Assembly (NCBI GenBank): GCA_018398765.1
Contig: JAHBMJ010000366.1
Coordinates: forward strand, 1 to 64,000
DNA from: Chromera velia
Taxonomy: Eukaryota
DNA: 64,000 nucleotides
Direction: 5' to 3'
How positions within the stretch are numbered: position 1 is the stretch's first letter; each line of letters starts with the position of its first letter. The notes below the pieces were generated by a model. The model was given only the letters and a program-made list of their open reading frames with translations. It searched no databases and was not told the DNA's origin. Shown piece after piece: positions 1-62,000 of this stretch. The position numbers and the translations under genes were made by a program.

Positions 1-132
1 GGGGGGGAGCAAAAGGAAAAAGAGAGACAAAAAGAGAAAGAGAGACAAAAAAAGAGAAAGAGAGACAAAAAAAGAGGCAGAGAGACTCGCTCCCTCCCAT
101 GGTTGTGTTCACACACGTACAGCTCCACTCAC

Positions 133-987
133 CCCGCATCGAGGGCCTCAAATAATTTCTCCGTCACGTAATCTTTTGTGATCGAATTCTCAAACACCAG
201 ACAAAACTTGTATCTGCATGTATCAAAAAAGTCAGACAGAAGGCAGGAAAAGCAGGAATTAAAGAGAAAGAGGGGGCAGAGAGAGGGAGAAGAAAATTCG
301 GAGAATCGATCCGTCAAGTACATTCTTTTTATCTCCATGAGAGAAAGAAGAAAAGGGAGAAGGACTTGCAGACACACAGGCAGACAGGAAGGACAGGGAG
401 GAGAAAAAAAGACACAACAAAAACAAGAAGGGAAAGGAAGAAAGAAAAGGGGAGATGAATGAAGAGTCAGGAGAAAGCAACGCCCAGCGTTGGGATGCTG
501 CTTTTTTGTTCACGCAATTACTTTCATACAATTCTGTATGGAGTATTCTGTATAAAAAAGAATTCTGTATGAAAGTAAATGCAAACGCCCACGTACCGTT
601 GGAACGTTGCTCTTTTGTTCACGGGTCCTTTTTTCTTCGGATCCGTCTCACGAACAAAGTCGGCGTTGTGGAGGCATCTGCAGAGAAGAGACCGACAGGG
701 TGTGAAGACAGATAGACAGACAGGCAGACAGACCGACAAACACAAACGCAGACACACAATCTGTATAGGCAAACAGGCAGATGCAGTGAAAGAAAGGCGT
801 TTTGTGTTTCTGCACGAATGGGAACGCAGAGATCAAGAGCGTAGGCAGAAACTCCGAAAGGAAACAAAGGACAAAGTCGGAAAAAGGAGAACACAAGAAC
901 GAAGAAGATGCACATGCAAGCAGACAGAAAGAGGAGCAGGCAGAAAGTTGGACACGTACAAGCGAGGAATGTTCACGTGCATAGATT

Positions 988-12587: not shown

Positions 12588-12624
<37 letters not shown>

Positions 12625-14433: not shown

Positions 14434-14468
<35 letters not shown>

Positions 14469-29958: not shown

Positions 29959-30673
29959 GTCGGTGATAGAGGTAAATTTCGGACTTTTCAATCAGACTCG
30001 CAGTAACTGTTGCCTATATGTGTTGCATGGGCCTCTTCGTTCAAAACATCAACCGTAAGAACTCACGTGTGAGATTGAGGCACGATTGACCCGTTTCAGC
30101 GACTACTTGCGCTACAAATAATCGGTTTGGTGCACACAACAGCACGAGAATCAATGTGAGGAGCTGTTCTATATATATTACGGGATACACGAGGCGACAG
30201 ATATATAGCAATACATATATATAGGTCAGTCATTTTCCTTTCTCGGCATGCATGCATGCATGGGGTTTTTGAGTTTGTCCAAATGCATGGGTGCATATTG
30301 GGGGAGACGCATGCGTGATCGCCGTGATCGACTCGCGATCTCTCTCATTTTTTTTTTTTTTTGCATTGTGTGGGGTCCATGCCTATACAGGCCGCCTGCA
30401 GTATATATACATATACACCTCTATGAAAGTCAAATCCACTGAGTGGATCCAACATTGAAGAGCACGCGGACAGGAAAGATCTGGCAGAGCCACAAGGCGG
30501 GAGACAGAACCATTCAATCCACTCGTCGAACAACTGCTGTTCATCGACGTGTTAATTGTCGGCATTGATCTGTACTGTCGTCCATTGATGTATATATATA
30601 TACTAGCTGCCGCGTATAATTGCGTTGACTTAATATTGATTCGACGTCCAACCCTGCTTTTGAGAGATCGCAC

Positions 30674-37617: not shown

Positions 37618-40600
37618 CATCCAACCGTGTATCCCGGACAGACATGTTTTTCTGTTTTACGCGGAAATCAGTGCAGCGTAAGGCTTTGATTTGACTCCCC
37701 GTCCAACCTCCCTCCCCAACTTCCTGTAGGAGGGATGGCGTTGATTCTCTTGGCGAGCGGGATGGACTATCGATCGATCGATCGATCGCACAATGTTATG
37801 CAATCAGCCGGCCTGTTTGAAGAAAGACAAACAAAGAAAATGCATCGTGGCATCCTGAGAAAAGAAAGCTCTTGAGCAGAACAGCTGAAGCAGTGAGAGA
37901 GAAAGAAAGCCAGAAAGAAAAGAGACGGTCCGGGATCTAGAAGACGATCGATCGAACATGGAAAGCCTCCCTCGCGTGGGTGTGCGGCAAGATGATGAGG
38001 AGGCACTATTTTGCAGTTCGGTTGATTGATGTTTTCTTTTCTTGTTTTCCGTTTCTCCTTTCTCCCTCCTGCCTCCCCTTTTTCTCTCTGTCTGTCTGTC
38101 TGTCTGTCTGCAAGTCTTTTTGTCCCGCCGTTGGCTTCCTTCCAAACTCTCATGCATGCATGGGGGCACCCACCTTCACGTAGGTTTCGCGCTTGCTTGG
38201 AGTGTCACAGTTGCCGTTGAGGAACACGACGGCGTTTCTTTTTTCGCTGAAGGGCAGAATGGGGTCCTGCAGAACGACCAGAAGGTCAAACAAACAGGCA
38301 GGCAGGCAGGCAGGCAGGCAAGAGTGGAAACATATCGATCTGCAAAAGTACCCAGAATGCTCACGAATGCATCGACACATACTATCACATGCAGACCCTG
38401 GCTGCAGCTGGACTCACTCGAGCAGGCAGTCGATCGTTCAATCATAATTAAAAGAAAAGAAACTGTCACTGAGCTTATATTGCAGAAACCCTAAGCAGGC
38501 GAGAAGGGGTTGGTGAGAAGGGCTAGGGACACAGGTATTGATAGTGAAGCACAAAGCGCCCACTCTCGCCCTCTCTCTCTCTCTCTCTCACAGTCTGTTG
38601 CACACCTTGGAGAGAGGACGGAACGACGAGAGAGGACAGAAGGGCGGAGGAATCAGTGAGGGCTACAGAAAAGGAGACAAGGTAAAAGATGGGGGGTGGA
38701 AAGAGAGAGACAAAGAATCGAATACGAAGGCAAACAAACAGTTGATCAGACAGAAAGTCAGACAGTCAGGCAGAAAAAAAGCAAGATCAACAAATGGATA
38801 GACACACATCCAGGCAGCTCCAAAGGAATGCAAAAATGCAAACATGGGGACATATGCAAAAACCAAGAAAGGTGGGGGGTACAGACGGCCACAGTCACAA
38901 CATCATCGATCATTCTGTACATATGTTTGTATTTGCATATGTATATAGATGTATGCGGCACTGGCGCCCCCAACCATGCACAGTTTGCCCTCAGTATTTC
39001 TTTCATCAATCGATGCACACACAGGCGACCACACCCGCATGTTCTCATCGATACCATCGTGTTGGATCGATCGCTCGAAAGGAAAGAAAGAAAGACTGCA
39101 TGCATATGCGCATGCATGCATGACTAAGCCCTTCGATCTACACAACTCACGTAGACCCTCTCGACCATCTTTGTCGTCAAACACGGCATCCACTTCTGCA
39201 GGCAGGCAGACAGGCAGACAGGCAGGAAGACAGAATTCATCGACGTATATAATATCCCTTCGATGACTTGTTGATCCTTTCGGTCCATAAGGAAGACAGG
39301 AAACCTCGATATCCGCGTGCGCAAACATGCAAGATAGGTTTCTTTTCCATATGCACACATAAAAATCTTGAGTCTGTGCTTGAGAGTCGACAATTCGAAA
39401 TGTGAGAAGATGCACAGAAAACAAATGCATCATCCATGAACGTACAAACGGCAACTCACGCGCACAGGCAAACAAAATTCTCTCTCTACACGCATGCATG
39501 CATGCATGATCGTCTTCCCAGATCCCTCCCTGACTCCTAATGGATCGATCGATCGATCTGCATCAGCACCCAGAAGCACCCTTTTCTTTCTTTTCCTTTC
39601 CTCTCCTTCCCTTAATGACTTTGCGTCCACAGAGACAACGTACACATTTATGCGATACCAAAATGGATCTCTGTTTCATTCCATACCACCCCGACACCGA
39701 GCCAGACCGACCGACCGTACTCTCCTTGAGGTACGTGGACGACATGTCAAATCTGCAGGGAGGAGGCATGCCATCAGTATACAAGGGGAAAGGGAACAAA
39801 TAGAGGAGGCAAACCTTCACAACGAAATTAATTCAAGTGTATGGAAGGAAGCATCCAAATGTTGATATCATTCCAAACCAACACATACAACGTCATGCGG
39901 ATGTGCTTCACTACATGACAGACCATCAGAAAAGCTGAACAAATGACTGTGGGCGGAGGTGACAGACCGACAAACAGGCAGATAGGCAGGCAGGCAGGCA
40001 GGCAGGCAGACAAACAGACAAAGAGACAGACAGCCAAACAGACAAAAAAGGGCGGACAAACAGACAGACAGATAGACAAACTGGCAAACAAACAGATAAA
40101 AAGACAATTACAGAACAGACACTCATGCCTGCATGACCTCAATGACCGACAGGCGCAAAAAATCCGGATTTCTGAAAGCCGGTACGCGAACTGCCGACTC
40201 GATCCCGGTGAGAGCCGTCATCTGCCAAGGGAATGTCTTCTGGAAGATTGGCCTCAATTCCTCCGAAGATCCTTTCAACCCGACAAACCCATGCCACATC
40301 AGGACCTCAGCATTTTGGTTGTTCTTGTACTTGGGATGTGTCCTAGAATAAACTTCGCATGGAACCCGGCAGCCCTGAAACGGTCCGTCCGGGTACCTCA
40401 AATGCGACCTTGACATAAACTGGACGGTCACAGTTTTGTTACTTATTACAGGGGTGACCGAAGAAGGCTCTGGTGACACGTCAGGGGTGATTGCGCCTTT
40501 CGATGAGGTCTCATCAGTCAGTGCAGCCTCTTTCGTAATGTTACGTGCACCCGCCGTTCCTCCGAAAGGCCGGTCTTCTCTTTGAGGCGAAATACCAGCA

Positions 40601-41555
40601 GAGGGATGACCCACTCCTTCTTCTTTGGGGGCAGCAGAAGGCGGGGACGTCTGCAAATTCTCCCCCCCCCCGGTCGTTGCAACTAGCTCTGGTTCCGTTT
40701 TTTCGGAGGCGCGGTCACCAGCCAAAAAGACGGCCCCTGGACCGGGCATCGCACCCGTTTTCGCTTCTCCCTGTGGCCGAAGTGATTTTGCTTCATTCCC
40801 CCCATGACTCAAACCAGCACCCCCTCCATCTCCCTCCTGTTGAGTCTGCAGCAGCTCACTCTTCGACGCCGACTGCTGCACGCCGACTTTCGTCAGTCCA
40901 GCAGTCTGGAGTGAGTTGTTGCCGTCTGCTGAACTGCTGTTCGCGTCCATTGAGGAGGAGGGGGCTTCTGCGGTCCTGGGCTGGAGGAGACCCGACGCCG
41001 CCCTCTCCCCCTCAGCCTCGTCTTCTCCTCCCGAGTCGGGCAGTCGTGCTCCGTCCGTCTTCTCCTCTTTCAAGGAAGCAGGGAACAAAGAAGGAAAAAT
41101 ACACACATTTACATACACTTCAGGCAGGAAAACACCGTCCGTCTCGCTGCGCATGCAAGGCGGAACGCGTACTCGCTCAAACTCAGTACCGCTTGCCTTT
41201 CTATATATGTATACGTGCATCCGTGCATTTCACAGAGTGTCGATATCATTACCCTGGACGGCAGCAATGGAGCCGACGTACCTCTTTTCGCTTCTTCGAG
41301 CTCACATACGACCTTCAGCCAGCACTCCGCGCCTTCAGGCTCACACTCTTCCTGAACAATCCGGTGAGTGCCCTCGCAGTGACGCAATGGAGAAGGAAGA
41401 GTTCCCTCTGGACGGAAACACACGTCTTTTGCACTGGGAATCGATTTCTCTTCCCCCAAAACGAGAAATTTGCGGACTTGCACGAACTGTCGCCAGTACA
41501 TGACAGAAAGGAGAACCAAGATGCAGGCGGCGCCAATGACGAAGCAGCGCGTCAT
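33369..41555 (-). CDS. GT10 alpha-1,3/4-fucosyltransferase-like type II membrane protein, copy 2
   Basis: Exons: 41555-~41478 (TM MTRCFVIGAACILVLLSVMYW), ~41065-40151, 39752-39716, 39195-39151, 38266-38174, 37530-37484, 36951-36868, 36013-35933, 35227-35142, 34584-34442, probably 33861-33795 and 33538-33369. Motifs VVFLNGNCDTPSKRETYVK, VDAVGACLHN, SKFCLVFENSITKDYVCEKVFEGLQAGCLPL..GPANIREFLP, LMHNETAYNERLKWK. Confidence 0.88.
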
Positions 41556-42266
41556 GGCGGCTGCACAGGTTGAGGGCTCGAAGCTGCACTCCTGTTGAAT
41601 TCAACGATCAATTAATCTACGCAGGGTGGGTGTGGTGAGGATGGATGACTCATGGGACGATCCGATAACGTGCATGCACACCCGACGGGTTCTTCGTCTG
41701 CATGCTTTTTTCTGCCTCCACTCCCGAGAGCTTCATAGTTCTCCGGCGCATCGCGACTTTATAGAGGCGTCACTGTCTTTCTCCCATTCTTTTTCCCAAG
41801 AGCTCTTCGTCTTTACTTAGATGTTTTTGGCGGTGCTTGCTACCAAACTTACAACCTATTTAAAGGTACGATTATTACGCTAATTGAATCTTCATGCAGC
41901 GCCTGACCTTTTTTTTCATGCATGGACAATACACGCCCGGAGAGGCGATAAGAAGAATGGACATGCATGCAGATTTGGAGAGATGGACAGATCCCATGCA
42001 TGGGCGCATGCATGCATGCTGGACCGCGACGGATACGGCATGCATGCATGGTTGACTTACCTATATATATATATATATATATAATCGTATCTGAACGAAC
42101 TTAAACTGCATCTGTCTTTGTACCCTCTTCAATGTCCTTTGTAAAGGTGAACTTCGTGTGCGTATAGAGAGATCTTCGTCTTTACCGCAAGCAAGGATTG
42201 TCTGGTCCTTTTCAATCTTTGTGAGTTTCGAGTTCAAAAGAGACACTCCGGCCGTCCCAGTCAGCC
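41556..42266. promoter_or_regulatory. Putative bidirectional promoter between GT10-2 and NeuA-NeuB
   Basis: 711-bp head-to-head spacer with clustered (T)GCATGC(A) at ~41960-42050 and (TA)n at ~42062-42082. Confidence 0.5.
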
Positions 42267-43372
42267 ATGATCGCTGTTATCCTTGCCCGCGGGGGCTCCA
42301 AGCGATTTCCTGGCAAGAACGTCACTCTGCTCTGTGGTAAGCCTCTGATAGCGTGGACAATCGAGGCAGCACTGGGCTCAGGCCTATTCTCTCAAGTGGT
42401 CGTTTCCACAGACTGCGAGAAGATCAAGGCAGTGGCCGAGCGCTACGGAGCTTCTGTGCCCTTTCTTCGTCCTGCCGATCTCGCCTCTGACGATGCCAGA
42501 GCTGTGGATGCTCTGGAGCACTGCTTGCAGACACTTGGAGTGTCCTCTGGGAAGTGCTGCCTGCTGCAGCCAACCAGTCCAGTACGTTCTGCAGAAGACG
42601 TGCGAAGGGCCGCAGAGGAATTTGAGAAGTGTCCTAAGGATGTTGTGCTCGTGTCAGTTATCCCTTCGAGCAGCAGTCCCTTCAAGACGCACACGGTCAC
42701 TACAGACAACCTCATGGCTCCCGTGACGTCTGCGCAGTTTTTTTCGACAAATGCACAGTCGCATCCACCGACATACTCCGAGAATGGGGCCATCTATTTC
42801 TTCCATGCGGACAGCTTCTTTGCCGCCAAGCCCCAGACCGCCTGCGGTGTTTACGGGTACAAAGCTGCCCCCTTCGTGATGAGCCCAGAGACAAGCGTGG
42901 ACATCGACAAGCCCGAAGACCTCGAGAGAGCGGTGAAGGCTCTCGCCCCCCGTCTCCGTCAGGCGAGGCCTCCCTTCCTTATTGGGAACAGAGTCATCGG
43001 CCCAGACCAGCCCCCACTGGTAATCGCAGAAATAGGGATCAACCATGAAGGCGACTTTCAAAAGGCCATCAAAATGGTTGACGACGCACACGCGGCCGGC
43101 TGCGAGATCGCGAAATTTCAGTGCCACGTCTGCAGCGATGAGATGACGAAGGACGCCGGTCAGTCCATTTCTGAAAAAAAAGCCCGGTCTGCGAAAACCC
43201 TATTAATGTCTGACCTTGATGCAGAGCGTGTACACATGTAGAAAGAGTCTTGTCACAACATCAGCAGCAAAGCACGTCGGCCGGTCAGTCTGTTTGAAGA
43301 GCCGAGCCGCTTCTGGTTCGTGAACTGTTGCAATTTGACGACTTAACGGTTCCTTTCTGTCTGTCTGTTTTT

Positions 43373-43412
<40 letters not shown>

Positions 43413-43990
43413 GCTCACTCTCTCTCTCTCTCTCACACACACACGCACAATCCCACGTGCATGCCGGCATGCAGGGAGCGTGATCCCCGGCAACGCGACG
43501 GAAAGCATCAAGACGATCATGGAACGGTCAGCTGGCATTTCTTCTTCCTCTTTCGATCAAGAGAACGTTCAGCTTTTCTTTTTTTTCGTTCCCCTCCTTT
43601 CCTTTCCTTTCCTCTTTCAAGGAAACGTACACGCTTGCTTTCTCTTCCTCTGTCTCTGTCTCTCACATGCCAGAAAGAAGCACAGCATCCCTTCACTCAC
43701 GTCTGCGTGCCTGGTCATCTCCTGACTCTCTCTCGCAGAGACTCCCATATCAGCCTGCCTGATCCACCCATGTACCCTTCATTTCCTCCCCCCCCCCTCA
43801 TTTGAGAGAGAGAGAGAGAGCCCTTCCACCAATTCCTATTCGCACATCCCCCTAGCTCTCTCCCGAGCCCACTACATAGTGCACAGTACCCATACAGCCC
43901 CCCCTCCGGCATTCATCGGTCTTCGCATTCTGTTTGAACGAAATCTCCGCTGAGTGCGCACATTTTTGTTTCTGTCTGTCAGTGTGTGTG

Positions 43991-44025
<35 letters not shown>

Positions 44026-46175
44026 CCCTGCATGGATGCTTTCATGCATGAATGCATGCAGGTGTGCGCTGACAGAGGAGGAGGATCGGAAGCTGAAGGA
44101 GTACGTCGAGGCCAAGGGCATGATCTACATGTCAACACCTTTCTCAAGGGCGGCAGCGGAGCGCCTGAAGAAAATGAACGTGGACTGCTACAAGATTGGG
44201 TGAGTGGGTGGGTGAGTGGGGAGGTGAGAGGGTGGGGGAAGGGGGATGGATGTGTTCCCTCTGCCACTGTTTGCCTTCTCATCTACACGATTGGTTAGTT
44301 GTCTCCTTCTCTCTCTACCTGTGTATCTGTTTGTCTGTTTGTCTGTCTGTCTGTCTGTCTCTCTGTCTGTCTGTCTGCCTGCCTGTCAGTCTTCTTGCCT
44401 GTCTGTCTGTCTGCCTGCCTGTCTGCCTGTCTGTCTGTCTGTCTGTGTCTCTGGTGCTCTCCGTCGCTGCCCCCTTTTCAAACCAGAACCCGGTTCCTGT
44501 CTTTTCTTCTCTGCCTGCCTCCTCGGGGTCTTCTCTGCTTTTGTTTGCACATGCGCTCTCTCTATTGTCCCCCGTCCTTGTGAATGTGTGTCTCCCCCTG
44601 CCCTCTGTTTGCACATGCGCTCTCTCTATTGTCCCCCGTCCTTGTGAATGTGTGTCTCCCCTCCTTTCCCCTCCTCTCCTCACGCATGCAGCTCCGGTGA
44701 GTGCAACAACTACCCTCTGATCTCTCATATCGCCAAGCTCGGTAAGCCGGTGATTCTGTCCACCGGCATGAACGACATCGCGTCTGTGGCCCCCGGAGTC
44801 GAAATTTTCAGAAAGCACAGGACCCCCTTCGCACTCCTTCACTGCACCTCCATGTACCCTACACCATATGAGCAGGTAGGGGGTGAGAGAGAAACGAAAA
44901 GAAGCCTCAGGCTGATAGCACACACCCCTTGGCGCGATCACCTGATCAATAGCAATGAAGGGAAAAGCCTGAATCTTGCATATTTGATCAGACAATAGGC
45001 CGTAGTCCTCACTAGTGGTGTATCTATGAGAGGAGTGAAATTTCAGAAAGAGTGGACTGTGTTTGAGGGGCTTTTTTTTTCATTCCGTCTGCTCTGTTCT
45101 ACTTTCTGTAAGATTGTTGGTCGCCTCCTTTTCATACAAATTCTGTCCGCATCTTTCTTTTGTCATGCCCCCCTTCCGTTTGGTTCTTTGGTCTGTTCAG
45201 ATTATGCAGTGTCTGTCCTTTTTCTTTCTGTTGTGCCCATTTGTATTTAGCGTGTTCACACGAGCCTTCTTTGTCAGCACTTCTTCTGGAGCCTTCCGTC
45301 CGTCCCCGCTTTCCAGGAAGGATAGAAGGAAGGAAGAGAGAAACGTCGATCGAGAAAAGAAGGGGACATGAGGAATCCTGCTGATAATACGACCATCCAC
45401 TTCCTTCCCACACTGCTGCTCTCTAGCTGACTGGCCCTCCAGGAGCTAGGAGGATCGATCCGCCCGTCCATTTCCTTCCACTCCACTCGGCTCCGCTGGG
45501 TTCCAGTTTGTGCTGCTGCCCCGATTTGGTTTGTCAAATCGATTGATTGGTTGATTGATTGATTGATTGGTTGATTGAATGGAATCATTATTTTTTGTTT
45601 GTGATTGATTGATAGATGGATGCATCATCATCATCATCATGTGGTGTGGTGTGGAGTACGTGATTGATACATCCATGATCCTCCATGCATCGATGATGCA
45701 GGTCCGATTGGGGGGCATTGCGGAATTGGAGCGCGCGTTCCCCGACGCCGTGTTGGGTCTGAGTGATCACTCCCTGGGCATTTGGACGTGCCTCGCGGCA
45801 GTCCCCCTGGGAGCATGTATCCTTGAGAAGCACTTCACGTCTGACAAGACCTGGCCGGGGCCGGACGTGCCGATCTCGATTGACCCCGACGAACTCCGTG
45901 ACCTCATTCAGGGAAGCAACATCATCTTCCGATCCCTGGGGGGAACTAAGGAGATCCTGAAGGAAGAGCAGCCGACGATCGACTTCGCCTATGCGTGTGT
46001 GGTGACCATCAAGCCCATCGCGAAGGGCGAGGTGTTCTCGATGGAGAACGTGTGGGTGAAAAGGCCTGGTACGGGGGAGATTTTCGCCAAGGATTTTGAA
46101 GTGGTGTTAGGAAAGATGTGCATGGCAGCGCTGGAGACCGACATGCAGCTGAAATGGGCCGACGTGCAGAAGTGA
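42267..46175 (+). CDS. neuA-neuB: Fused CMP-nonulosonate synthetase (NeuA) + N-acetylneuraminate synthase (NeuB/SiaC-type)
   Basis: Exons 42267-43158, 43475-43526, 44062-44199, 44692-44875, 45702-46175 are in frame. NeuA: ILARGGSKRFPGKN, VSTD, FLRPADLASD, LLQPTSPVR, ENGAIY, SVDIDKPED. NeuB: PLVIAEIGINHEG, VIPGNA, STPFSRAAA, YKIGSGECNNYPLI, ILSTGMN, LLHCTSMYPTPYE, GLSDHSL, ILEKHFT, and an AFP/SAF-like tail NVWVKRPGTG. Confidence 0.95.
44542..44662. repeat. Direct tandem duplication (64-bp period) in NeuA-NeuB intron 3
   Basis: TGTTTGCACATGCGCTCTCTCTATTGTCCCCCGTCCTTGTGAATGTGTGTCTCCCC starts at 44542 and again at 44606. Confidence 0.9.
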
Positions 46176-47769
46176 CGAATTCAAGGGAAATTGAGGACCA
46201 ATGTGAAAAGGGAGTGGGCTGGTCCGAGCCGCACTTTGCCAGTTTGCATTTCTCTTGCATGACTGCACTTGCTTCAATCAGACCCATGCCAGTGCATTGG
46301 GCATCCCTCATGCATTCACTTTGCACATCTCTCAAGAGCACATCTGCATGGCTACACCAGCCAGTCAATCGCCCATACAGGCGACTGCCGGTCCCTCTGT
46401 GCCGGCCAGTCTCTGAGCTCCCTGGTCCTTCAATCCGTCTAGCAATAGCAGTCCGCCTAGCAGTCCGCAAATCACTAAAGTACCACTCACTTGATATCCG
46501 CCTCGTTCTCAGTTCACCAACATCCCACATACCGACTCCATCTGGTTGTGTACTGTACCAAAGTAACCAAACATGGAAATTAACGTACTATGATGATAAA
46601 CACGTACGTGTTTGAACTCGGAGAATCGGATTCAATTTGAAAGTGAAAGTGAATAGAGAAGACTAAGCATATGTATATAAATATAACTATCAATATAGCT
46701 TTAAAATTAGTCATGACTAGTCACAGTATGACAATATTTACGACACTCAAAGTTTATTTAACTTAGTATTTTAAACTTCATATTTGTAGGTCTTTACGGA
46801 CTCTTTACCTTAGTTTTGGTGAATGTTTACTGTGACAAAACGGCATGTCACGGCGGTAACCTTTAAAAAGATGAACTCCTGATGAAACAAATTTAATTTT
46901 TTATAGGCTACTAGATTTCAAGCAGTACGTGCGTCTATAGACATGACAAATACAAATAAAACAAAAAGAAAATCCAGAAGAAAATACAAATCACTAATAA
47001 TGATTTTGTATCATGCAATGGCAGCATTGCCGCAGCAATGAACCACCCACTGGCACTTAATTTGTTTAATAGTTTGTAACTTATTGGAAAAGTTAACAAA
47101 GACGACTTAGAAAAAAAAAGAGCAATAATTTTTTTTTCGATCATCATTCATGCACTAACTTTGAAAGACTAGTTGAAAGAGCGGGAAAAAAGAATGACAA
47201 ATGGGCCCACCCGGTCTGGAGATAGACAAAGACTCGGAAGAAAGAGAGAGCAAAGAGATGGAGAAAGACGAAATAACGACACAGATGTGGGGAATGAATG
47301 ACAGAGAGGGCATCTAGCAACAACATACAGAGGAGCTCAGCGGAGATGCATGGGGGAAAAGGGGAGAGAAGGAGGACGGCACTTAAGAGAAAGGCAGAGA
47401 GAGGCGGACGAACAAGAGGGAGAGAGACTGCGGGAAGAAAGAAAGAGAAAGGCCCAGAGAGAAAACGAGAGGAGGAAGAGAACGAAATTCAATGAATGAA
47501 GAAGAAAGGGGTACATCTGGAGCAAAGAGTGCATGAGAGTTTGGGGCAGAGAGAGAGCAAGGCAGAGAGAGTTCAAAGAAACGACTGCCCCCCAAAAGGC
47601 ACGTGAGAGTGACATGTGAATAAAACACCGATCAACCTTTTGTTTGGTTCCATTGTCAACACACGTATGTGTACAAATTCATGCAGAGGCACATGCAAGC
47701 AATAGTAATAAACCTGAATGAATCAATTCAAACAACTTCGATCGTGGGGGGATGATCATCTCTCTGTGA

Positions 47770-48906
47770 TTAGAGCTGGCCCAGGACTCCCTCGAGGTGC
47801 TTCATCATCCTACTCACGGCATGACCGTCGCCGTAGGTGGTGTCCCTGTCAAATCTCTCCTTCGGGTGCTCAAGCAACGCCTGCAGCACCTCATCCGAAT
47901 TCTCCCCCTTCACGGAAAAGACGTTCGGCGGACAGGTGCGGCCCTGCTGGCGGGTCCCGACGTTGACTGCGGGTGTGCCGAAGAACGCAGCCTCCCTGAT
48001 GATCGCGCTGCTGTTGCCGACTATCGCCTTGCAGTTTTTCAGTAGAATGATGAACTCCTCGTGGGGGAGAGAGGTCATGCAGTTGACATTCTTGGAAAAT
48101 GTGGGGGAGGTTTTCTGAATTTCGTGGAGCGTCTGGATCATGTCTTTGCTCCCCGGGTCGATATTCGGGTAGAAGAGGATGGCACGTTCTCCCGTTCGGT
48201 CTACAGCCTCCAGGATCGACCTGTACTGTTTCACGGTGTCCTGGATACTGCAGGTGTCGGGATGGTACATGATGATGAAATATTCATGGGGGACTACTCG
48301 GTGAGTAACCAGCAGGTCTTCGGTCGAGTGTCCACTGCCGATATGTTCCATTTCGAGGAACACATCGTACGATGGACATCCGGTGCAGAAGACTGCGGAG
48401 TTTTCCTCACCCATTTCAATCACTCGCATCCTGGCTGCCTCCGTACATGTGAAATGAAGATCGGAGAGTTTCGATATCGAATGTCTCAGCTTTCCGTCAA
48501 TCGTTCCGGACAATTCCCCTCCCTCAAGGTGCACTGTGAAGATTTGCAACAAAGTGGAAGCAGATGCCACTCCGAAAGCGTCAAAACGGTCACCGTGCAC
48601 AATCACAATCTTTGGCTTAGCGAGGGCCAAAAACTGGGAGACCTTCAGGATGGTCAACGCCACCGAGTCGGCCATGTTGTTGGTATCATTCCCCGCCGCC
48701 ACGGTGGACACTTTGGTGGCACTCTTGGCGAAGTCCTTCTCCACAAGGCGGAAACTGTACCCGCTTTCAATCAGAAGATGACTGCCAATCACCAGTGGTA
48801 CAAGCTCAAACAGAGGAGACTTCTCAAGGGCAAGCATAAGGCCCCTCAACTTGGAATAGTCCGCTCGGGTGGAGGTAACAACACACACCTTGACGGGTTG
48901 CTCCAT
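47770..48906 (-). CDS. neuC: Hydrolysing UDP-GlcNAc 2-epimerase (NeuC / GNE epimerase domain only), intronless
   Basis: ATG 48906; VCVVTSTRADYSKL, GSHL, VHGDRFDA, HLEGGELSGTID, RHSISKLS, GCPSYD, YPNIDPGS, VGNSS, VNVGTRQQGR, YGDGHA; stop at 47770 with no kinase domain. Confidence 0.95.
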   Translation of the reverse strand: MEQPVKVCVVTSTRADYSKLRGLMLALEKSPLFELVPLVIGSHLLIESGYSFRLVEKDFAKSATKVSTVAAGNDTNNMADSVALTILKVSQFLALAKPKIVIVHGDRFDAFGVASASTLLQIFTVHLEGGELSGTIDGKLRHSISKLSDLHFTCTEAARMRVIEMGEENSAVFCTGCPSYDVFLEMEHIGSGHSTEDLLVTHRVVPHEYFIIMYHPDTCSIQDTVKQYRSILEAVDRTGERAILFYPNIDPGSKDMIQTLHEIQKTSPTFSKNVNCMTSLPHEEFIILLKNCKAIVGNSSAIIREAAFFGTPAVNVGTRQQGRTCPPNVFSVKGENSDEVLQALLEHPKERFDRDTTYGDGHAVSRMMKHLEGVLGQL

Positions 48907-49774
48907 GGTGGTATTGTTCGCGCTCAAAGCGGCCAAGTGGAAGCAGACCTTTGACGTGAAAAGCTACCTTTCAATCTGAATTACCGGTCACGAAATTTTG
49001 TTGGTGCTTCGAGATTTCAGTTGGACGGTCTTTGTGCTGGAATCGGCTCCTAGATGAAGTTGTTGCATATACGTTGCATAGCCCGTCTGAGTGTTGCTGG
49101 AGGTGGCGATTCAAAGAGCAGGCCTGTGGGACGCGGGTAAGAAAGAAACAGACAATTCGGAGCGAAAACAAGGCAGTCTTCGTGAGAGGACAGAGGGACG
49201 AAACATATATATATATAGCTATATAGGTGGGCACGTATATATATATTTTTTAGTCGGGTGTTGTTTGCCTGACCTTTTTTTTGCAACATTTTACCGCCGG
49301 CCGGACAGTCGCATTATAGAGCCGATTAATTGTGCGATTGCATATATATTTAAGGGACAACAGCGTCCCCAACCGGCTCCTTAATTCTGCGGCGCAACGT
49401 ATACGTGCCCAACCTGCATCATTGCTTGCATGCATGTCCATGCACGGCGACTCCTCTCCATCTCCTCTCCTTCTTTCCTGTCTGCCTCTTTCTGTCCTCC
49501 CTGTCTCGATCCTTCATCCGTGCCGGCCACTTTGAAATTCCTTTCTGTCTGTCTCATGGTCCTGACCGGACCTATACATATATATGTATGGAATATGCAC
49601 ATCAGATAATTGACGGTTGTGGAGGTGTCGGACTGCATGTCTCGAACATCGTCGAAAATCCTTGTGCATGTGGGATTGAATTGGCCTTTCATCAATTGAA
49701 ATTTCTCTAGAGTTTCACGGACTCTTGCACCGCGAAAACGAAGGCAGGCGTTTCGGATCGGAATCCTGTCCGAT
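48907..49774. promoter_or_regulatory. Putative bidirectional promoter between NeuC and the oxidoreductase
   Basis: 868-bp head-to-head spacer with (TA)n at ~49205-49247 and TGCATGCA near 49428. Confidence 0.5.
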
Positions 49775-50968
49775 ATGACCGACGTAGACGGGGTCTGGTT
49801 GATCGGGTGTGGGAAACATGCGATCCACTATGGCAAAATCTTGGGGCATCTGGGGAGAAGCTTTCTGGTCATTGGGCGTGGAGAGAACTCAGCCAATGAA
49901 TTCCTGAAGAAGTTCGAAGAGGCATGCCCAGACGTGAAGTCTCTGCCTGAAGTCAAATTGGGCGGACTCCAGCAGTTTCTCTCAACGAAGCCACCGATAT
50001 GCGGAAAGGCGATCCTTTGCCTGCCTGTCGAAAACCTGGCCTCCGCAACCTATCAACTGATCCGGTACGGTGTGAAAGACATTTTGGTGGAGAAACCCCT
50101 CGGGAAGAACAGCTCTGAGCTGGACCGACTGGTGAAGGTTTGTGAAGCGGAGGATCACAGGCCGCGGGTCTTTGTCGCGTACAACCGCCGTTTCTACGCA
50201 TCCGTCACTCAAGCAAAGGCTCTGATAGAGAAGGAAGGAATCCTCTCGGCAAAGCTGGACTTCAGCGAGAGGACAGACCAACAGGCGTTGAGAGTTCCTT
50301 ATCTTTTGGTTGGTCGGTTCCTGCAGAGAGCACAAAATTGTGTCCGTTTTCGTCATCTTGTGATATGCTTGCATCTATTCTTTTGGTAATTTCCCGGTCT
50401 GTTCCTTTCCCCTTCAAACTAACACTTGTAATTTATGCAGGGAGAAGTGCACAAGTAGTTTTGCCCTGCTCTTCTATGCAGATGGGCAACAGCTCACACA
50501 TGCTGGATGTCCTTTTTTTCCTCGCCGGCATGCCCGTGGAGCTGCACCCCAGCCACTCGCATAGCGGGGACCTCGATTTCTTCCCTGGGCCAAGCGTGTT
50601 TGTCGGTCACGGGAAAACAGACAAAGACGTGAGCTTCTCGTACCACGCAAACTGGAACTCTGCTGGGCGGTGGGCTGTCGAGGTCATAACCCGAGAGAGA
50701 AAACTTATCCTCAGTCCCGTGGAGAAGCTGCAGGAGGTGGGCAAGATAGATAGACCGTCTACGCTCGCTCTCATGATCTGCCTTCTAGTGCGTCCCTCTT
50801 CCTGCCACCCTGCATTCCTCTTTGCCAGACTCGCCGTCCACCCCACCTTTCTATGTCTGTCTCCCTGCTTTCCTGCCTGCCTGCTTCCGTGCCAGAGAGG
50901 CGAAGGCATGCGTGCCACCTCCGGGCCGTTAGTAAATTGCCTTGAGACTGCGCTCTCTTGTCCTGTTT

Positions 50969-51005
<37 letters not shown>

Positions 51006-51006
51006 C

Positions 51007-51042
<36 letters not shown>

Positions 51043-52972
51043 TATGTGCGTGTGTATGTGCGTGTGTGTGTGTGTGTGAGAGAGTGCAGATGCCGAAAGG
51101 AACGTTCAATCTCAGCGAGGTGGACCCGGGCGAGTTTGCAGGCGCGTACAAGAGAGACCAGGTCTTCAAACCGGGTCTCTTCGATCTCACGGAGGCCTTT
51201 TTGAAGTTGAAGGAGGGGGACTTGCCGCCTCCCTCTCTGCCTTCGGTTGAAGACCAGCTGGAGCTGGTTCGGTACTACGAGCGGATTGAGGGTCAGAGGA
51301 GCGACAGTCAGGTGTGGGTGGTCGGCTGTGGAAACATCGGTATGAGACATCTGCAGGGGATAGCAAAATTCAAGGGCGCGCCCTTCACCTTGAAAGTGGT
51401 GGAGAAAAGCGATGAAGCCCTGCAGAAGGCATCCAATGCCTTTCATGATGAGGCAAAGAAGGGGAGCGTGGATCACATCTTGGTCCCCTTCACCGACTGT
51501 GCCTCCCTTGTCGGGCAGCAGCCTGTCGATGCAAACGTGATTTTGATCGCAACAACAGCAGACGCAAGGTTTCAAGTCCTAAAAGAACTTTTCTCGGCCG
51601 AGGTGGGGGACCCTTCATCGTTCATGCCGACGAGGATCCTCATTCTTGAAAAGGTGAGCTGGGGGGGGAGGGAGGGAGGGAAAGTTTGCAAGACAGAGAG
51701 GGGACGAGAAGCCACGCAGACGGGGAGAGGCGGAAGGAAGGTATGAAGGACGTCCTCTTTGTGTGTTTAGATTGGGACGGAGAGCTAATTTGAGGAACTA
51801 CAGAGAAAAGACATGCAAAGTGTGAGAGGAAATAGAGGAGAAGAGGAAGCGCGTGCGAGACGGTGAGAAGAGTGAGGAGAAGGAAAGAAAAAAAGTCGAG
51901 AGGCGAAGAATGCAAGAAGAAAGAGCAAAACGGGGCAGGCAGATCAAGTGGAGGAGAAAAAAGAGACAGACAGGTGAGTAAGTTTAGCATGCAAGGAAGA
52001 GAAAGAGTGCGAGGGTGAAGAGAAAGGAAAGCTTTCGGGAAAAGAAAGGAACGTAAAAAGAATAAAAAATGGACACAAAAAAAAATAGAGAGGTTGAAAT
52101 GAGGACATCTTCCCTCCCTGTTTCTTTCACAACTGCATGCAGCCTCTGTTCCAGAGAGAGAGGGACTACGACGAAGCCCCCCATCTGTTCTCGCGTCTCG
52201 GTCTGGACGTCTACGTCCACCTCCCCCACCGCATCCACCCCCATATCCTCCAGTTCAAAGACAAACTTGCTGCTGCTGCTGCACAGGTACGAGACGAGAC
52301 GAAACGAAAAATGAAAAGCCACTAGATGCATTCATTGGAGAAGAGAGAAACAAAGAACATGGATAGATCGTGAGAATAGACCGCTGCATGCTGCTTGGTG
52401 TATGGGCTGTATCAAAGAGTGAAGAGGCAAGATGACACGTGTGGAGGCGTAACTTTCTCTCTCAAAAGCGTTTGATTCCTGCTCGTTTGTCTGTCCGTGA
52501 CATGCAAGCTTTAGATGTATGCGATACCTCATGCTTCACTGCCCTCACGGTCGGGTCTCTTTCCTTTTTGTACCTCAAACCGTCTCAATCGATCCATCGA
52601 TCCTGAATGTCTTCAGAAGAGAAACATCGATCTGCATGGTGTTCGCTGCTTATTTCTCTTCTCTCTGTCTCTCTCTCTCTGTCTCTCTCTCTCTCTCTTT
52701 TTTGTTTTTAATGCATGCATGCATGCATGCGCCTGCCTGCCTACCTGGGTGCCTGCAGGAGCCTGTGCACATGAGGTATGGGGGTTTCCACTGGGGTCTG
52801 GGTTGCAATGGCATCCACGGTCTGGACCTGTTTTTGATGATGAACGGCGAGGTGGGGCGACCGGACGACCTCCAGTTTGACAACTCAATGGTCAGAATGA
52901 AGCTCAAAAGAAAGAAAGCGCATAGATCCATGCGTAGTAAGGCTTTGATTCAAGACGCAACGCAAGTATTGA

Positions 52973-53009
<37 letters not shown>

Positions 53010-55477
53010 CGATTGATTGATTGATTCTGCCTAGACCCGGCCGGCACATGGGACAATCAGGGAGGCAGGCAGGCAGGCAGGCAGGCAGACAGACGGACAG
53101 GCAGGAGGCCGCAGGGGCAGGCGCAAAGGATTGAGTGGGGACTTTGGGACAAGCAGACAAGCAAGTCAGGGAGACAGACCGGCACTGCTACTTCGATTAT
53201 GAGCCTCAGAGGGACTTTCTGTCTCTCTCTCTCTGTCTGTCTGCCTGTCTGTCTGTCTGTCTGTCTATTTGTCTATCGCGTTGCGTTCTTCCCTGAATTC
53301 AGGTCAGAGAGGTCCTGCCTGCCAAGCGAAAGGGAGCCTGTGAGTTTCTCGGGGAGCTCAAGGTGACGCACCCTAACGGTGCTGCGTTGACACTCGTCAG
53401 TGGGTGGGTGGGAGGTGAAGGGGATAGCCTGGTCTGGCCTGGTCTGGTGGGGCTGGCTGGCTGGGTGCATGGGCTGTGTGGGCGGATCTGACTCTTCCTT
53501 GGAATGAAGTGAAGGAAAGAAAGAAAGAAAGAAAGACAGACAGACAGACAGAAAGAAAGAAAGAAAGAGACAAGGAGAGAAAGAAAGAAAGGAAGAAAGG
53601 AAGAACGAAAAAATTGATTCAGCCCTTTGGGAAATGCTGTGGACTTTCGCTTGATCGAGTGAACAACTGACTAGAAAAAAAAGAAGATCACGCCCTCTGT
53701 GGCTTACTGATTCTGTATCCCCAAAAAGAGATGGACATACACGTGTCTGCAGTCGTTTCTGTCGTGCTCTTCTTGTATCAGTATCAACAGTGCTGGATTG
53801 TGTGCCTGCGCGTCTGAAACGAAAAAGCCGTTCCTTTCCTTTCCTTTGCGACCTTTATGCACGTAAACCGACCGTCTCCGAATTAACGATTGAATTGCAG
53901 CTTGCTGCTCTGAACCTTGCCGTCAATTGAATTGAATTGGCATATAACCGTGCAGTGTTGTGCTCCATACAGCTCTACATGATCTGATATATCGATCCCC
54001 CCACCTCTCTCTCTCTTCCCCCTTTGCCTCAGTGGAACGACGTACCACCTGAAGAGGGGAAGCATAACGCGCTCGAATACGAGCTCGATTCTGCATCCTG
54101 GAAGGGGGTCTTCAAGAACGGCAAGTAAGTAAGGAAGTCGGTCGGGAGGGAGGGAGGGAGGGAGGTGTTCCTTTAAAGGCCCTTGCTGGTGGATGACCTC
54201 CGATCGAGGCCCTTCTTGTCTCTCATTCCTGCAAAAACTCCTTCAGAATTCTGCATGTAACCCCTTCCTTTCTTCCTTCCTTCCTTTCTTCTTTCCTTCC
54301 TTTCTTCCTCCCTTCTGTCTTTCTTCCTTCCTTTCTTCCTTCCTTGCTCCTTCATTTTCTGGTTGCTGCTTTGCTTCCTTTTTTTACTTCCCTCTTGCAG
54401 GTGGAAGGTTGGAAAAGACCTGAACAACCCCGAGCGTGAAGAAACACTGGGACACCCATACGTAAGTCGCATTTTTGTTCTTGTTCACGCTTTGCTCCTC
54501 CGAACGACGTCACGGCCTTTTCCTTGTCCCCTCCCTGTTTCTTCTGCTCCCTTCCCTTACCAGTGAACCCTAAATTTAAATTCACAACAAATCGCCTTCC
54601 CTCTCTCCCCTCCTACCCCCTTGCCCGAGGAGCCCGTGAGAGAGAGAGAGAGAGAAACAGACAGACAGACAGACAGACAGACAGATTGACAGATAAACAG
54701 AGAAATATGCAGATTCGAAATCCCCCCCCCAGCTTCCTCATGAGAAGGTCGCTTCCCTCCCTCCCTCCCTCGACCCAACCTCTTCATGGCCATCTCATGA
54801 ATTGTTCACAAAACGCATGCAGCAACGCGAATGGGTGCATGGTCTCTCCGACTGACTTTTTCTTTCTTGATTGTGCGCAGGTCTCCGAGTCAAGCCTCAT
54901 TTGGTTCTCGCAGTGCCTCAGAGACAAGAGGTGGGTGGGTGCATTGGCCGACAGTCTGCCTCTCGATCCACACACAAAAAAATGATTCGCATGCGTTGCT
55001 TTCATGAACCCTTTTGCTTGTGTTTGTTCGGTCCTCTCGACAAGTCCTCGATCTGTGAGGAAATTCATCTTGCTGCCCGTGAAGAAGTCTCTGCGGATCT
55101 ACTGAATGCATTCAGATCCTCTCCTCACACTCCCAACACGCAAGCGTGTCCATCCACTCCACTTGATTTCCTGTGTTGTCTACGAAGACCGCCGGAAGGA
55201 AGAATTTGATGTTGCATGGACTGTACGCAGCCATCAAACCGACGTGGTTGAGTGATTGTCGCACGCGCTTGCAGGTGCGCCCTCCCGACCTACATTTAAT
55301 TTCATAAAAAAGTAAATGCACGTACGCGCTTGCAGGTGTGCCCTCCCGACCTACGCACAGGTGGCGCCAGCGGCTGTCGGCCTTCACCGTTCGCTTCTAC
55401 AAGTCTTTAGAAAGAGCCCGAATCCAGAAGCAATCTCCGGGCCTGACCTCGAACCCGACTGTCTGCCGATCACTTAA
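49775..55477 (+). CDS. Tandem fusion of two Gfo/Idh/MocA-family NAD(P)-dependent oxidoreductases
   Basis: Domain 1: WLIGCGKHA, ILVEKPLG, VAYNRRFY, GNSSHMLD, ANWNSAGRWAVE, FKPGL. Domain 2: WVVGCGNIGMRHLQG, IATTADARF, LILEK|PLFQ, WGLGCNGIHGLDLF, AKRKGACEFLG, C-terminal CLPIT*. Exons ~49775-50284, 50482-50736, 51090-51653, 52143-52286, 52759-52890, 53303-53395, 54033-54124, 54401-54461, 54881-54930, 55336-55477; one or two micro-exons unresolved. Confidence 0.85.
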
Positions 55478-59040: not shown

Positions 59041-62000
59041 ATGATTAGACTGAATCGCTGCGGTTGCCGGTACTTGATCTGCATCGCGCTTTTCGTGGCC
59101 GTAGTCAACACATTAGTGGGTTTGCAGCTGTTGAACGGCACTGAAATTCCATTTTCAATCGTCCCCTACCAGACTGAGTGCAACTGCACTGCCGCAGTTG
59201 CAGAAGCAGTTGCAGCCGTTACAGCTGAAGCGGCAAGAGAGAGGGAAGAAATCTTGGCTCGTGTTGCAATGCAGGCACAGGCAGCAGCCGAGTCGACGCC
59301 GCCGGAGCCACCGATCCCAAACAAAGCAGCGGGGACGGGGAAGAAGACGCAGCGGCAGCCTGCTGCACAGAAAAAAAAGAAAGTAGTGCTAAATGAGGAG
59401 TTACTGCCAACAGGCCTAAGTATTTGGGAGGTTCCCACAATCTCACGGAGAATAGCCGATTTGCCCTGGTCGAATCTGACCGCTTTCCGTGCGGCTTTCC
59501 CCAACGATACAAGTAGCTCTACGATCAAGCGGGTTCGCGGTACGCACGACTACGGGGCCGAGGAGCAACTTCGCAGCTTCTTCATCCAGCACGGCCTCGC
59601 GAACTTGCGATTTCCGGGTGTGAACGCCACGCAGCGGGTGGAATGGGACCGCCCTCCGTTGTTAGGGCTCCTGGAAGGGGAATTGAAGGGTCCTGTGCTG
59701 GACCACGTGGCGGCGCCCAAAAACGGTCGCCTTCCCTTTTCGATCCCTTCTAAACTTTATGATCAGTGGAAAGGACTGGTGAAGGGCCTGCTGGAGAAGA
59801 GACCCAGATTCCATCTTGACTCCACAGTGCCGAAGGGATCTGAGTATCCCACCTGTGCTCTCGTGGCCAGTGGTCCGGATATGCTCAATGCGAAGTTTGG
59901 CGCAGAGATTGATGCTCATGATGTGATTTTTCGGATGAACTGCGCTCCTGTCAACGGCTTTGAGTCTCATGTAAGTTTGAGAAGGAAAGAACATTCTAAT
60001 CAATCTGTCAGTGACGCCTTTGAAGCTCAACGAGTGAGTGGGAGAGTCAGTCAGTCAATCCGTGAGTTAGTCATCAGTCAGTCAATTTGTGTATGTATTC
60101 ACGGACAGCGATTCTGCTCTTGGTGTTGTTCGTTTTTGAATCGTCGGCTTCCTTCCACATTCTCTCTCAATCGTCCTTTGAAAAGGTCGGTCTCCGTGCC
60201 TGCCTGCAGGTTGGCTCTCGCACCACCTTCCGCACAACATATCCGGAAAGTACGAGGCAACTGAAAAGGCACTGTGAGAGTGACTCGACCGATCTTAAGA
60301 ATGAAACAAAAACTGACATATGGTGTGAGGGTATCGTCGACCTTCCGTCAGAAGGGGGCACAGTCATTGGGATGGTATTTCACCCACAAAACCTGGAGTA
60401 TTACCACTGTGGGGCTCTGGGATGTCCAAAAAGTTCCAAATACAAATTCGCAACAGAGTACGTGCCCTACAGCGCGGACACGTTTACAGTCCTGAATCCA
60501 GAAGTAATCTGGATCGCACAGAGACTAGTCCCACGAAACGAGACGCAGGGATGGCCTTCTGCGGGGGGGATTCTGGTGGCGCTGACAGGATTGGTAGGTC
60601 ACTCAGCGCTTTCAACGGCCTCTCTCACTCTGTCTTCTTTCTTTATGTGTGCCTCTTTATTTTCATGTCACTTTCTTTTTGCATTCATGATTACCAGAAC
60701 CCTAGTCTATGCTCGTGACATCGTCTCTCTAGATTTTCTTCATCGCTTATCTCTCTCTGTCTAGATGCTCGTGGCAGTTGTTGTCTCTCCTCTTTTTTCC
60801 CCTTTTGACTTTTGTGTTTCTGTGCGTCTGTACCGACCTCTCTTTGTCTTCTCCTTTCCTTTTTCGCTCCCTCTCCCCCCCACCCCCCCNCCCCCCTCTC
60901 TCTCTCCCTCTCTCTCCCTCTCTGTTTCTCTCTCTGCCTCCCTGTGCCGCTCTGCATCTCTCCACGTCCGCGTCTGAGTCGGTCTTCTCATGCGATTTCT
61001 TTGAGCTTGTTTTCTCTCCATCTCTCCATCCGTCGACCCATCCATCCATCAATCCATCCATCCATCCGTCCGACTCTGTCTACCCGAATTTCCTTCTGGC
61101 TCTCTCCCCCTCTCCCTTTTCTTCTTCTGCTTGCGCACATTTTTGAGGGTCCAGCTGACGCCTGTTTTTTTTCGCTGGACTTGTGAATGAATTGGGTGTT
61201 TGCGTCGACTGATTTCTCTCCCTCCCTCCCTCCTTCTTTCTGCATGTACATACGTGTTACAGCGGTTTCACATTTATGATGCACTTTTCTTTTGTATCAG
61301 ATCGGAAAGAACAAAAACAAAAGTTCAAACGTTTACTGTGCCAAAGTTGTCGGATGACCAGTCTCTGAAGATTTATTGAATAAAAAAGGAGAAAAACGTG
61401 AATTGCTGTGTATGCATCCTTGATCTTTGTTTTTATTTGTGATATATGCAGGTGTGTCGGTCGACAACCCTCTATGGGTTTCCCAGCTCATATGCTGAGT
61501 ACTCACTTAAAGGACATGAAGCAATCAAAGAGTCTGACTTTGTTCGAAGGTGGCACTACTATGATTGTGGCGTGGCCACATAGCACAACAGTCTCTTTGG
61601 AGTCAAAAGTTTACGGTCTTCAATGACCCCCCCCCCCCNNNNNNNNNNNNNNNNNNNNNNNNNCCCCCCAATTTAATAACACTTTAGTTTAACAAAGTGT
61701 CATGATATGCTGTCATTAAATGAAAGTCATCTTAATGAATTGTTTAATATGTATTGATATGTTATAATTCTAATAATCTGTGAACATGTGCTATATATAC
61801 TTAAATTTTGTGTCTACCGTTTCAAGTTGTAACCGTATGATGGTCTGTATGTTTCAAATAGTTTGATATAGAATAATTCAAAAATAAATACAAAAATTAA
61901 AAGGAAAAAAACTTGATATACTTAAAAAGCGATCTAAAGCTATTTCTAAGAAGGATAAAGAGGAAGACTGCCCACTGAGGCTCTGTTCAAATTTTTGATG

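What the first reader, a model, noticed from the sequence alone, without database searches (positions are those of the whole stretch)
47770..48906. Animal-GNE-like epimerase without the kinase domain: a hybrid pathway
Seen: RADYSKL, HGDRFDA, EGGELSGTID, GCPSYD, PNIDPGSKDM, with a stop straight after YGDGHAV..; intronless. Established: these motifs are close to the epimerase half of vertebrate GNE (RADYSKL, HGDRFDA, EGGEVSGTID, GCPSYD, PNIDAGSKEM), which is fused to ManNAc kinase. Bacterial NeuB uses unphosphorylated ManNAc, so no kinase would be needed here. Inference: informative for the origin of GNE, either a pre-fusion relative or a transfer.
Basis: partly seen in the sequence, partly recalled or inferred. 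Interest (0 to 1): 0.7.

Follow-up and report, generated by a model that had tools for sequence, protein, structure and literature searches.

The report
Algal cousin of animal sialic-acid enzyme
This alga carries a stand-alone, already published cousin of the first half of the animal sialic-acid enzyme GNE, which sits next to a bacterial-type synthase and sugar transferases and likely makes sialic acid with them without a kinase, but it is not the closest relative or likely donor of the animal gene.

Summary
47770-48906(-) is an intronless 378-aa hydrolysing UDP-GlcNAc 2-epimerase (NeuC/GNE family). One RNA contig spans it unspliced, another ends in poly(A) about 150 nt past the stop, and the window holds no ROK kinase.

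The core idea is in print. The identical protein is 'Chromera3 velia' in Petit et al. 2018 (PMC5811610), who placed it with Micromonas as sister to deuterostome GNE and proposed a transfer from Alveolata.

Added here:
(1) With more taxa it nests with green-algal and environmental copies. Animal GNE is closer to a diplonemid protein and two unnamed kinase-less proteins. AU tests reject window+GNE (p 7.5e-5) and protist branch+GNE (p 0.008).
(2) 19 of 19 catalytic residues are kept but only 1 of 10 CMP-Neu5Ac feedback residues, so feedback is likely absent.
(3) It lies in a roughly 19-kb cluster with a spliced NeuA-NeuB fusion of Neisseria SiaC type, an oxidoreductase fusion, a CgtA-like transferase and a GT29 sialyltransferase, which supports a kinase-free pathway. 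A giant-virus contig has the same gene pair.

Verdict: real, largely known, modest interest. No biochemistry was tested.

The parts
47770..48906 (-). Stand-alone hydrolysing UDP-GlcNAc 2-epimerase, GNE-related branch, 378 aa, intronless, no kinase domain
   Evidence: AF2 model pLDDT 89, TM 0.92 to 4zht; identical to Chromera3 velia ARZB01056196.1 in PMC5811610 supplement
47621..47769 (-). 3' UTR ending at a likely poly(A) site near 47621
   Evidence: Poly-T loose end in one X5 contig; X1, X2 and X6 contigs end at 47626
42267..46175 (+). Spliced NeuA (CMP-sialic acid synthetase)-NeuB (SiaC-type synthase) fusion, 579 aa. Exons 42267-43158, 43475-43526, 44062-44199, 44692-44875, 45702-46175; convergent with the epimerase
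   Evidence: Model open with GT..AG ends; 3 of its 4 introns seen as RNA joints, the fourth fits record offsets; 387.5 bits to N. meningitidis SiaC versus 141 to PseI
49775..53400 (+). Spliced fusion of two Gfo/Idh/MocA-like oxidoreductases, divergent from the epimerase; 3' exons beyond 53400 not resolved
   Evidence: RNA joints; halves 36% and 28% identical to two adjacent genes in the Paenibacillus luteus neuBCA locus L089
56585..58086 (-). CgtA-like (beta-1,4-GalNAc transferase-like) glycosyltransferase; gene model incomplete
   Evidence: ESM Atlas feature hits 0.97-0.98 to CgtA/GT2 clusters; no Pfam hit
59269..60590 (+). GT29 sialyltransferase (5' exons; the gene may run further)
   Evidence: PF00777 E 1.1e-12; N-terminus matches the 'chromera' ST printed in the PMC5811610 supplement

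Best explanation
This Chromera velia gene encodes a kinase-less member of the GNE-related epimerase branch that likely hydrolyses UDP-GlcNAc to free ManNAc, which the adjacent bacterial-type NeuA-NeuB fusion would condense with PEP and activate to CMP-sialic acid for the nearby GT29 sialyltransferase. No ManNAc kinase or phosphatase would be needed. The enzyme likely escapes the CMP-Neu5Ac feedback of animal GNE because the binding residues are replaced. In evolution it is a cousin from an algal branch (Picochlorum, Mesostigma, Micromonas, environmental copies), not the sister or donor of animal GNE. Shown: ORF, family, expression without a kinase exon, residues, neighbours, tree position. Inferred: activities, product identity, lack of feedback.
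For: NeuC cutoff passed. 19 of 19 catalytic and UDP-binding residues named in PMC4793188 kept, including hydrolysing-specific R113 and S302. Only 1 of 10 CMP-Neu5Ac contacts identical: R263>Q258, R266>H261, K267>E262, K280>T278, against 7-10 in the 12 animal GNE rows, 9 in P0013 and 8 in P0020. Neighbour synthase closest to SiaC; it keeps E134 and R314, where PMC8208679 reports D and V in eukaryotic NANS. Trees: algal branch 100/97 and 97/97; GNE+Namystynia+P0013/P0020 97/86 and 97/93. AU p 7.5e-5 and 0.0077. A branch relative on metagenome contig L096 also sits beside a SiaC-type NeuB.
Against: No enzyme assay and no sugar analysis. The whole genome is not held, so a ROK kinase or NANS elsewhere is untested. 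The database model of the synthase (P0407) scores 343.9 on TIGR03569, under the 399.65 cutoff; that model lacks the RNA-supported exon 2 and my full model was not scanned. The oxidoreductase fusion could modify the sugar. Tree rows were hand-picked (72 of 360, then 45 of 72), several rows have biased composition, and deep forks inside the GNE-containing clade are unresolved.
Confidence: 0.75

Rival explanations
1. The Chromera (alveolate) lineage donated the epimerase to deuterostomes, where it fused with a ROK kinase (Petit et al. 2018; one of the first reader's options).
For: The window protein scores higher to human GNE than to solved bacterial NeuC. No named prokaryote falls in the clade that holds it and GNE. 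Published tree with 34 sequences (figure not seen).
Against: AU rejection. Closer kinase-less relatives keep the feedback site (47% identity to Pan GNE versus 37%). A full epimerase-ROK fusion occurs in the sponge Oscarella pearsei (P0156; a sponge gne was already noted in PMC5000683), so the fusion likely predates deuterostomes.
Confidence: 0.07
2. The cluster makes a modified nonulosonate (legionaminic-like or an epimer) rather than Neu5Ac: the epimerase and synthase act on another substrate or the double oxidoreductase alters the product.
For: The fused oxidoreductase pair mirrors genes in a bacterial neu locus. The PDB titles of the best bacterial matches read 'GDP/UDP-diacetylbacillosamine 2-epimerase', showing that the family spans substrates.
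Against: The synthase is far closer to SiaC than to other solved synthases. No bacillosamine dehydratase, aminotransferase or acetyltransferase hit among 127 window ORFs scanned, though short exons would be missed.
Confidence: 0.13
3. The gene is a truncated or secondarily split GNE, or the kinase is a separate gene elsewhere in the genome and the animal-type phosphorylated route operates.
For: The genome could not be searched.
Against: All near branch relatives are stand-alone or fused to CMAS, none to ROK. Petit et al. report NANS lost in Alveolata. The adjacent synthase is bacterial-type.
Confidence: 0.05

Closest known systems
'Chromera3 velia' ARZB01056196.1 in Petit et al. 2018 (PMC5811610; seen: abstract, introduction, main-text passages, supplement 1 parts 51-52 and search hits, supplement 2 part 4; figures not seen)
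   Same: Identical 378-aa sequence; placed with Micromonas commoda next to deuterostome GNE; bacterial-type synthesis in Alveolata proposed.
   Different: They proposed an alveolate donor, which my trees reject. Four motifs of the neighbouring NeuA-NeuB gene are absent from their supplement text, and no clustering is described in what I read.
Animal GNE epimerase domain (human, PDB 4zht; PMC4793188, first two of five parts read)
   Same: Fold (TM 0.92), 19 of 19 catalytic residues, 37% identity, same major clade.
   Different: No linker or ROK kinase; 1 of 10 feedback residues; partner synthase is NeuB, not NANS.
Bacterial NeuC/SiaA with NeuB/SiaC and NeuA (neu operon)
   Same: Stand-alone hydrolysing epimerase, kinase-free logic, genes clustered.
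   Different: Eukaryotic spliced and polyadenylated genes, NeuA-NeuB fused, GT29 transferase; epimerase outside the named prokaryotic groups sampled.
Micromonas commoda epimerase-CMAS fusion XP_002506929 and Picochlorum/Mesostigma copies
   Same: Same branch, same lack of the feedback arginines (24 rows keep 1-4 of 10 residues).
   Different: In Micromonas CMAS is fused to the epimerase; here it is fused to NeuB.
Chromera synthase in Vieira et al. 2021 (PMC8208679; passages seen)
   Same: Lists C. velia and M. commoda synthases among five eukaryotic sequences outside the NANS branch.
   Different: No link to the epimerase or to a gene cluster in the passages read; identity with this gene not checked.

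Membership tests
Hydrolysing UDP-GlcNAc 2-epimerase (NeuC/SiaA/GNE-N) | TIGR03568 above cutoff, WecB model below | tested here: met
   343.8 versus 235.9; WecB 73.3 versus 210.15
Hydrolysing UDP-GlcNAc 2-epimerase (NeuC/SiaA/GNE-N) | R113 and S302 equivalents plus catalytic D112, E134, D143 | tested here: met
   R107, S300, D106, E128, D137
Hydrolysing UDP-GlcNAc 2-epimerase (NeuC/SiaA/GNE-N) | Releases ManNAc and UDP from UDP-GlcNAc | not testable with these tools
   Needs an assay
GNE (bifunctional) | C-terminal ROK ManNAc kinase in the same chain | tested here: not met
   Stop after residue 378, unspliced RNA contig, poly(A) end, no ROK hit in the window
GNE (bifunctional) | CMP-Neu5Ac allosteric residues (R263, R266, K267, K280 and others) | tested here: not met
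   1 of 10 identical; three more are conservative swaps; all four named basic residues replaced
GNE (bifunctional) | Epimerase domain is in or sister to the animal GNE clade | tested here: not met
   Same larger clade (100/99) but a different sub-branch; AU rejection
LegG (NDP-diacetylbacillosamine 2-epimerase) | Lies with bacillosamine-forming genes and a LegI-type synthase | tested here: inconclusive
   None found among 127 window ORFs; synthase SiaC-like; no characterised LegG or LegI was placed in my trees
Bacterial NeuB (neighbour gene) | Closest to SiaC; E25, E134, E234, F112, F288, R314 kept | tested here: met
   Read by me from the alignment; numbering from PMC8208679
Bacterial NeuB (neighbour gene) | TIGR03569 above cutoff | tested here: inconclusive
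   343.9 versus 399.65 for the database model that lacks exon 2

The most novel reading that the evidence does not exclude
The Chromera cluster is one copy of a mobile, feedback-free sialylation module (GNE-type epimerase plus SiaC-type synthase plus CMAS in varied fusions, with transferases) that circulates among unrelated algae and giant viruses. Animal GNE arose from a sister branch whose kinase-less members (P0013, P0020, a diplonemid protein) already carried the CMP-Neu5Ac feedback site, so feedback control predates the kinase fusion and the published alveolate-donor story is wrong.
Probability: 0.3. Interest if true: 0.65.

Novelty: already known. Interest (0 to 1): 0.35.

Why it matters
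Where the animal sialic-acid gateway enzyme GNE came from is an open question. This gene was the main evidence for a transfer from alveolates. The wider sampling here argues that it is a side branch and points to better pre-fusion candidates that can be assayed for feedback inhibition. The cluster also predicts that this alga makes and transfers sialic acid by a short kinase-free route, testable by one sugar analysis. A eukaryote-expressed epimerase without feedback would be a useful natural control for GNE regulation.

Tried and rejected
- Downstream kinase exon: rejected.
- Bacterial contamination: rejected. The flanks are intron-rich eukaryotic genes, GC3 is 0.69 versus 0.71 in the spliced neighbour, and the same RNA runs hold the gene with a poly(A) end.
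- Genome-wide kinase/NANS search: not possible, no genome held.
- Direct virus-to-Chromera transfer of the pair: not supported. The giant-virus epimerase (L001) forms its own branch and its NeuB is not sister to the window's. Marker checks on L001 could not run, so its viral label rests on the IMG/VR name.
- Degenerate ROK tail in the Namystynia protein: inconclusive. No Pfam or HMM hit; hhalign score 18.2 with 1 of 20 shuffles higher; AF2 tail pLDDT under 50; ESM Atlas top hits were ROK at 0.83, a lead only.
- Single-protein scan of viral contigs found nothing.
- No run is on record as RNA; RNA status rests on spliced joints.
- Earlier findings of this scan: none.
- de Mendoza and Ruiz-Trillo 2011 was not held; known only through Petit's summary.
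- Paper searches for a Chromera cluster, a giant-virus sialic-acid pathway or a diplonemid GNE relative listed none by title or abstract. The giant-virus glycan review PMC9614988 has no occurrence of 'sialic' or 'nonulosonic' in its held text. Subscription papers and figures were not searchable.

Full report
1. Observation. The minus-strand ORF from ATG 48906 to TAA 47770 gives 378 aa with all five motifs quoted; the stop follows YGDGHAV by 14 residues. It matches PF02350 end to end, passes the NCBIfam cutoff for hydrolysing NeuC and fails WecB. Its best solved relative is human GNE epimerase, 272 bits against 157.5 for bacterial NeuC. An AF2 model from a 15-row alignment (pLDDT 89) matches 4zht at TM 0.92 and NeuC 5xvs at 0.87.

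2. No kinase exon. A donor-like GTGAGT lies near the 3' end, so splicing had to be tested. Four of six listed runs were laid on 41500-53400. The tool only guesses that they are RNA, but X1 and X2 skip six GT..AG introns in the neighbouring genes. X2 record 6 covers 47626-49182 without a joint, and one X5 contig (another study) ends in poly-T before 47621. The exact 378-aa protein is also held from the MMETSP and EukProt sources. tblastn with five GNE kinase domains found no kinase in the window. The rest of the genome is not held.

3. It is in print. The identical sequence is 'Chromera3 velia ARZB01056196.1' in the supplement of Petit et al. 2018, PMC5811610. Their supplement says it groups with Micromonas commoda as sister to deuterostome epimerases and suggests a transfer from Alveolata. 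The main text repeats this and notes a bacterial-type synthesis route in Alveolata. I read the abstract, introduction, passages, supplement parts 51-52 and one table part, not the figures. Vieira et al. 2021, PMC8208679 (passages), list a Chromera synthase outside the eukaryotic NANS branch. Teppa et al. 2016, PMC5000683 (passages), mention a gne gene in the sponge Oscarella.

4. Tree. A 360-row FastTree gives a 55-row clade (0.999) holding the window protein and GNE; only two loci fall in it, a giant-virus contig and one metagenome contig, and no named prokaryote. IQ-TREE on 72 hand-picked rows (LG+G4) and on 45 of them (LG+C20) agrees. The window protein sits with three unnamed proteins inside a branch with Picochlorum, Mesostigma and Micromonas (100/97; 97/97). 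Animal GNE, including an epimerase-ROK fusion from Oscarella pearsei, groups with a Namystynia (diplonemid) protein and two unnamed kinase-less proteins, P0013 and P0020 (97/86; 97/93). AU tests reject window+3 nearest+GNE (p 7.5e-5) and the 24-row protist branch+GNE (p 0.0077). The hypothesis came from Petit, but group membership was read from my tree. Against over-reading: several rows have biased composition, the forks among the four sub-branches are open, and an outgroup metagenome protein (L098) scores higher to Pan GNE than the window protein does (289 versus 267 bits).

5. Residues. Using the contacts listed in PMC4793188 (two of five parts read), the window protein keeps 19 of 19 catalytic and UDP contacts (Val282, a backbone contact, left out). 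It keeps 1 of 10 CMP-Neu5Ac contacts, with Q258, H261, E262 and T278 for R263, R266, K267 and K280. The 24 protist-branch rows keep 1-4, the 12 animal rows 7-10, P0013 9, P0020 8, Namystynia 6. L098 keeps 7, so the site may be old and lost in the algal branch.

6. Neighbourhood. A convergent five-exon gene (42267-46175) encodes a 579-aa NeuA-NeuB fusion, supported by RNA joints. The UniRef model P0407, labelled Chromera velia, omits exon 2. Its synthase half scores 387.5 bits to N. meningitidis SiaC against 171 to SpsE and 141 to PseI. By my reading of that alignment it keeps E134 and R314, which PMC8208679 reports changed in eukaryotic NANS. It falls under the TIGR03569 cutoff. In a 176-row FastTree it nests among bacterial and metagenome NeuB, sister to one unnamed fusion. 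A divergent gene fuses two oxidoreductases whose best matches are adjacent genes in a Paenibacillus neuBCA locus. Further on are a CgtA-like transferase and the GT29 sialyltransferase that Petit also used. Giant-virus contig L001 has the same convergent epimerase and NeuA-NeuB pair, but neither gene is sister to the window's. Contig L096 has NeuB next to an epimerase-CMAS fusion.

7. Mechanism. Most likely (0.75): UDP-GlcNAc to ManNAc by this enzyme; ManNAc plus PEP to Neu5Ac and then CMP-Neu5Ac by the fusion; transfer by GT29; no kinase, no phosphatase, no GNE-style feedback. Gene structure, family, residues and linkage are shown. Activities and product are inferred from established NeuC/NeuB/NeuA chemistry. 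Rivals: a modified nonulosonate (0.13), an alveolate donor of GNE (0.07), a hidden kinase route (0.05).

8. Verdict. The protein and its link to GNE's origin were published in 2018, and the extra data move it away from the origin of GNE. The cluster, the missing feedback site and the closer kinase-less relatives were not found in my paper searches (open-access library only, figures unseen). They are a useful refinement, not a new kind of system. Interest 0.35.

Noticed in passing
window 43475-43526 (+): A 52-nt exon supported by RNA joints is missing from the UniRef model P0407; it restores the stretch that aligns to SiaC's VIPGNADVSI segment.
   Followed up: yes
L001:7992-11726: Giant-virus MAG contig (21.6% GC) with a GNE-clade epimerase convergent on a NeuA-NeuB fusion, inside a run of sugar-related genes.
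   Followed up: partly
P0013, P0020 (unnamed JGI proteins): Kinase-less epimerases that group with animal GNE and keep 9 and 8 of 10 feedback residues; hosts unknown.
   Followed up: partly
P0245/P0402 (Namystynia karyoxenos): Diplonemid epimerase next to animal GNE in the trees, with a 250-aa tail that may be a degenerate ROK domain; tests inconclusive.
   Followed up: partly
P0156 (Oscarella pearsei), P0251: Full epimerase-ROK fusion in a sponge transcriptome, outside the deuterostome group; transcriptome contamination not excluded.
   Followed up: partly
window 49775-55000 (+): Fusion of two oxidoreductase genes that are separate neighbours in a bacterial neu locus, in swapped order; function unknown.
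   Followed up: partly
window 38200-41555 (-) and 132-509 (-): Spliced genes that look like glycosyltransferases. 132-509 hits GT10 fucosyltransferase; the 41555 gene looks GT10-like by eye only, with no Pfam hit.
   Followed up: no
window 28657-29991 (-); 12553-16094 (+): A methyltransferase-domain ORF and Sushi-repeat exons.
   Followed up: no
L098:6153-9128: Metagenome neuA-neuB-neuC operon whose epimerase keeps 7 of 10 GNE feedback residues and is 41% identical to Pan GNE.
   Followed up: partly
window 49183: One X5 contig carries a 24-nt loose end at the 5' side of the epimerase transcript, not explained.
   Followed up: no
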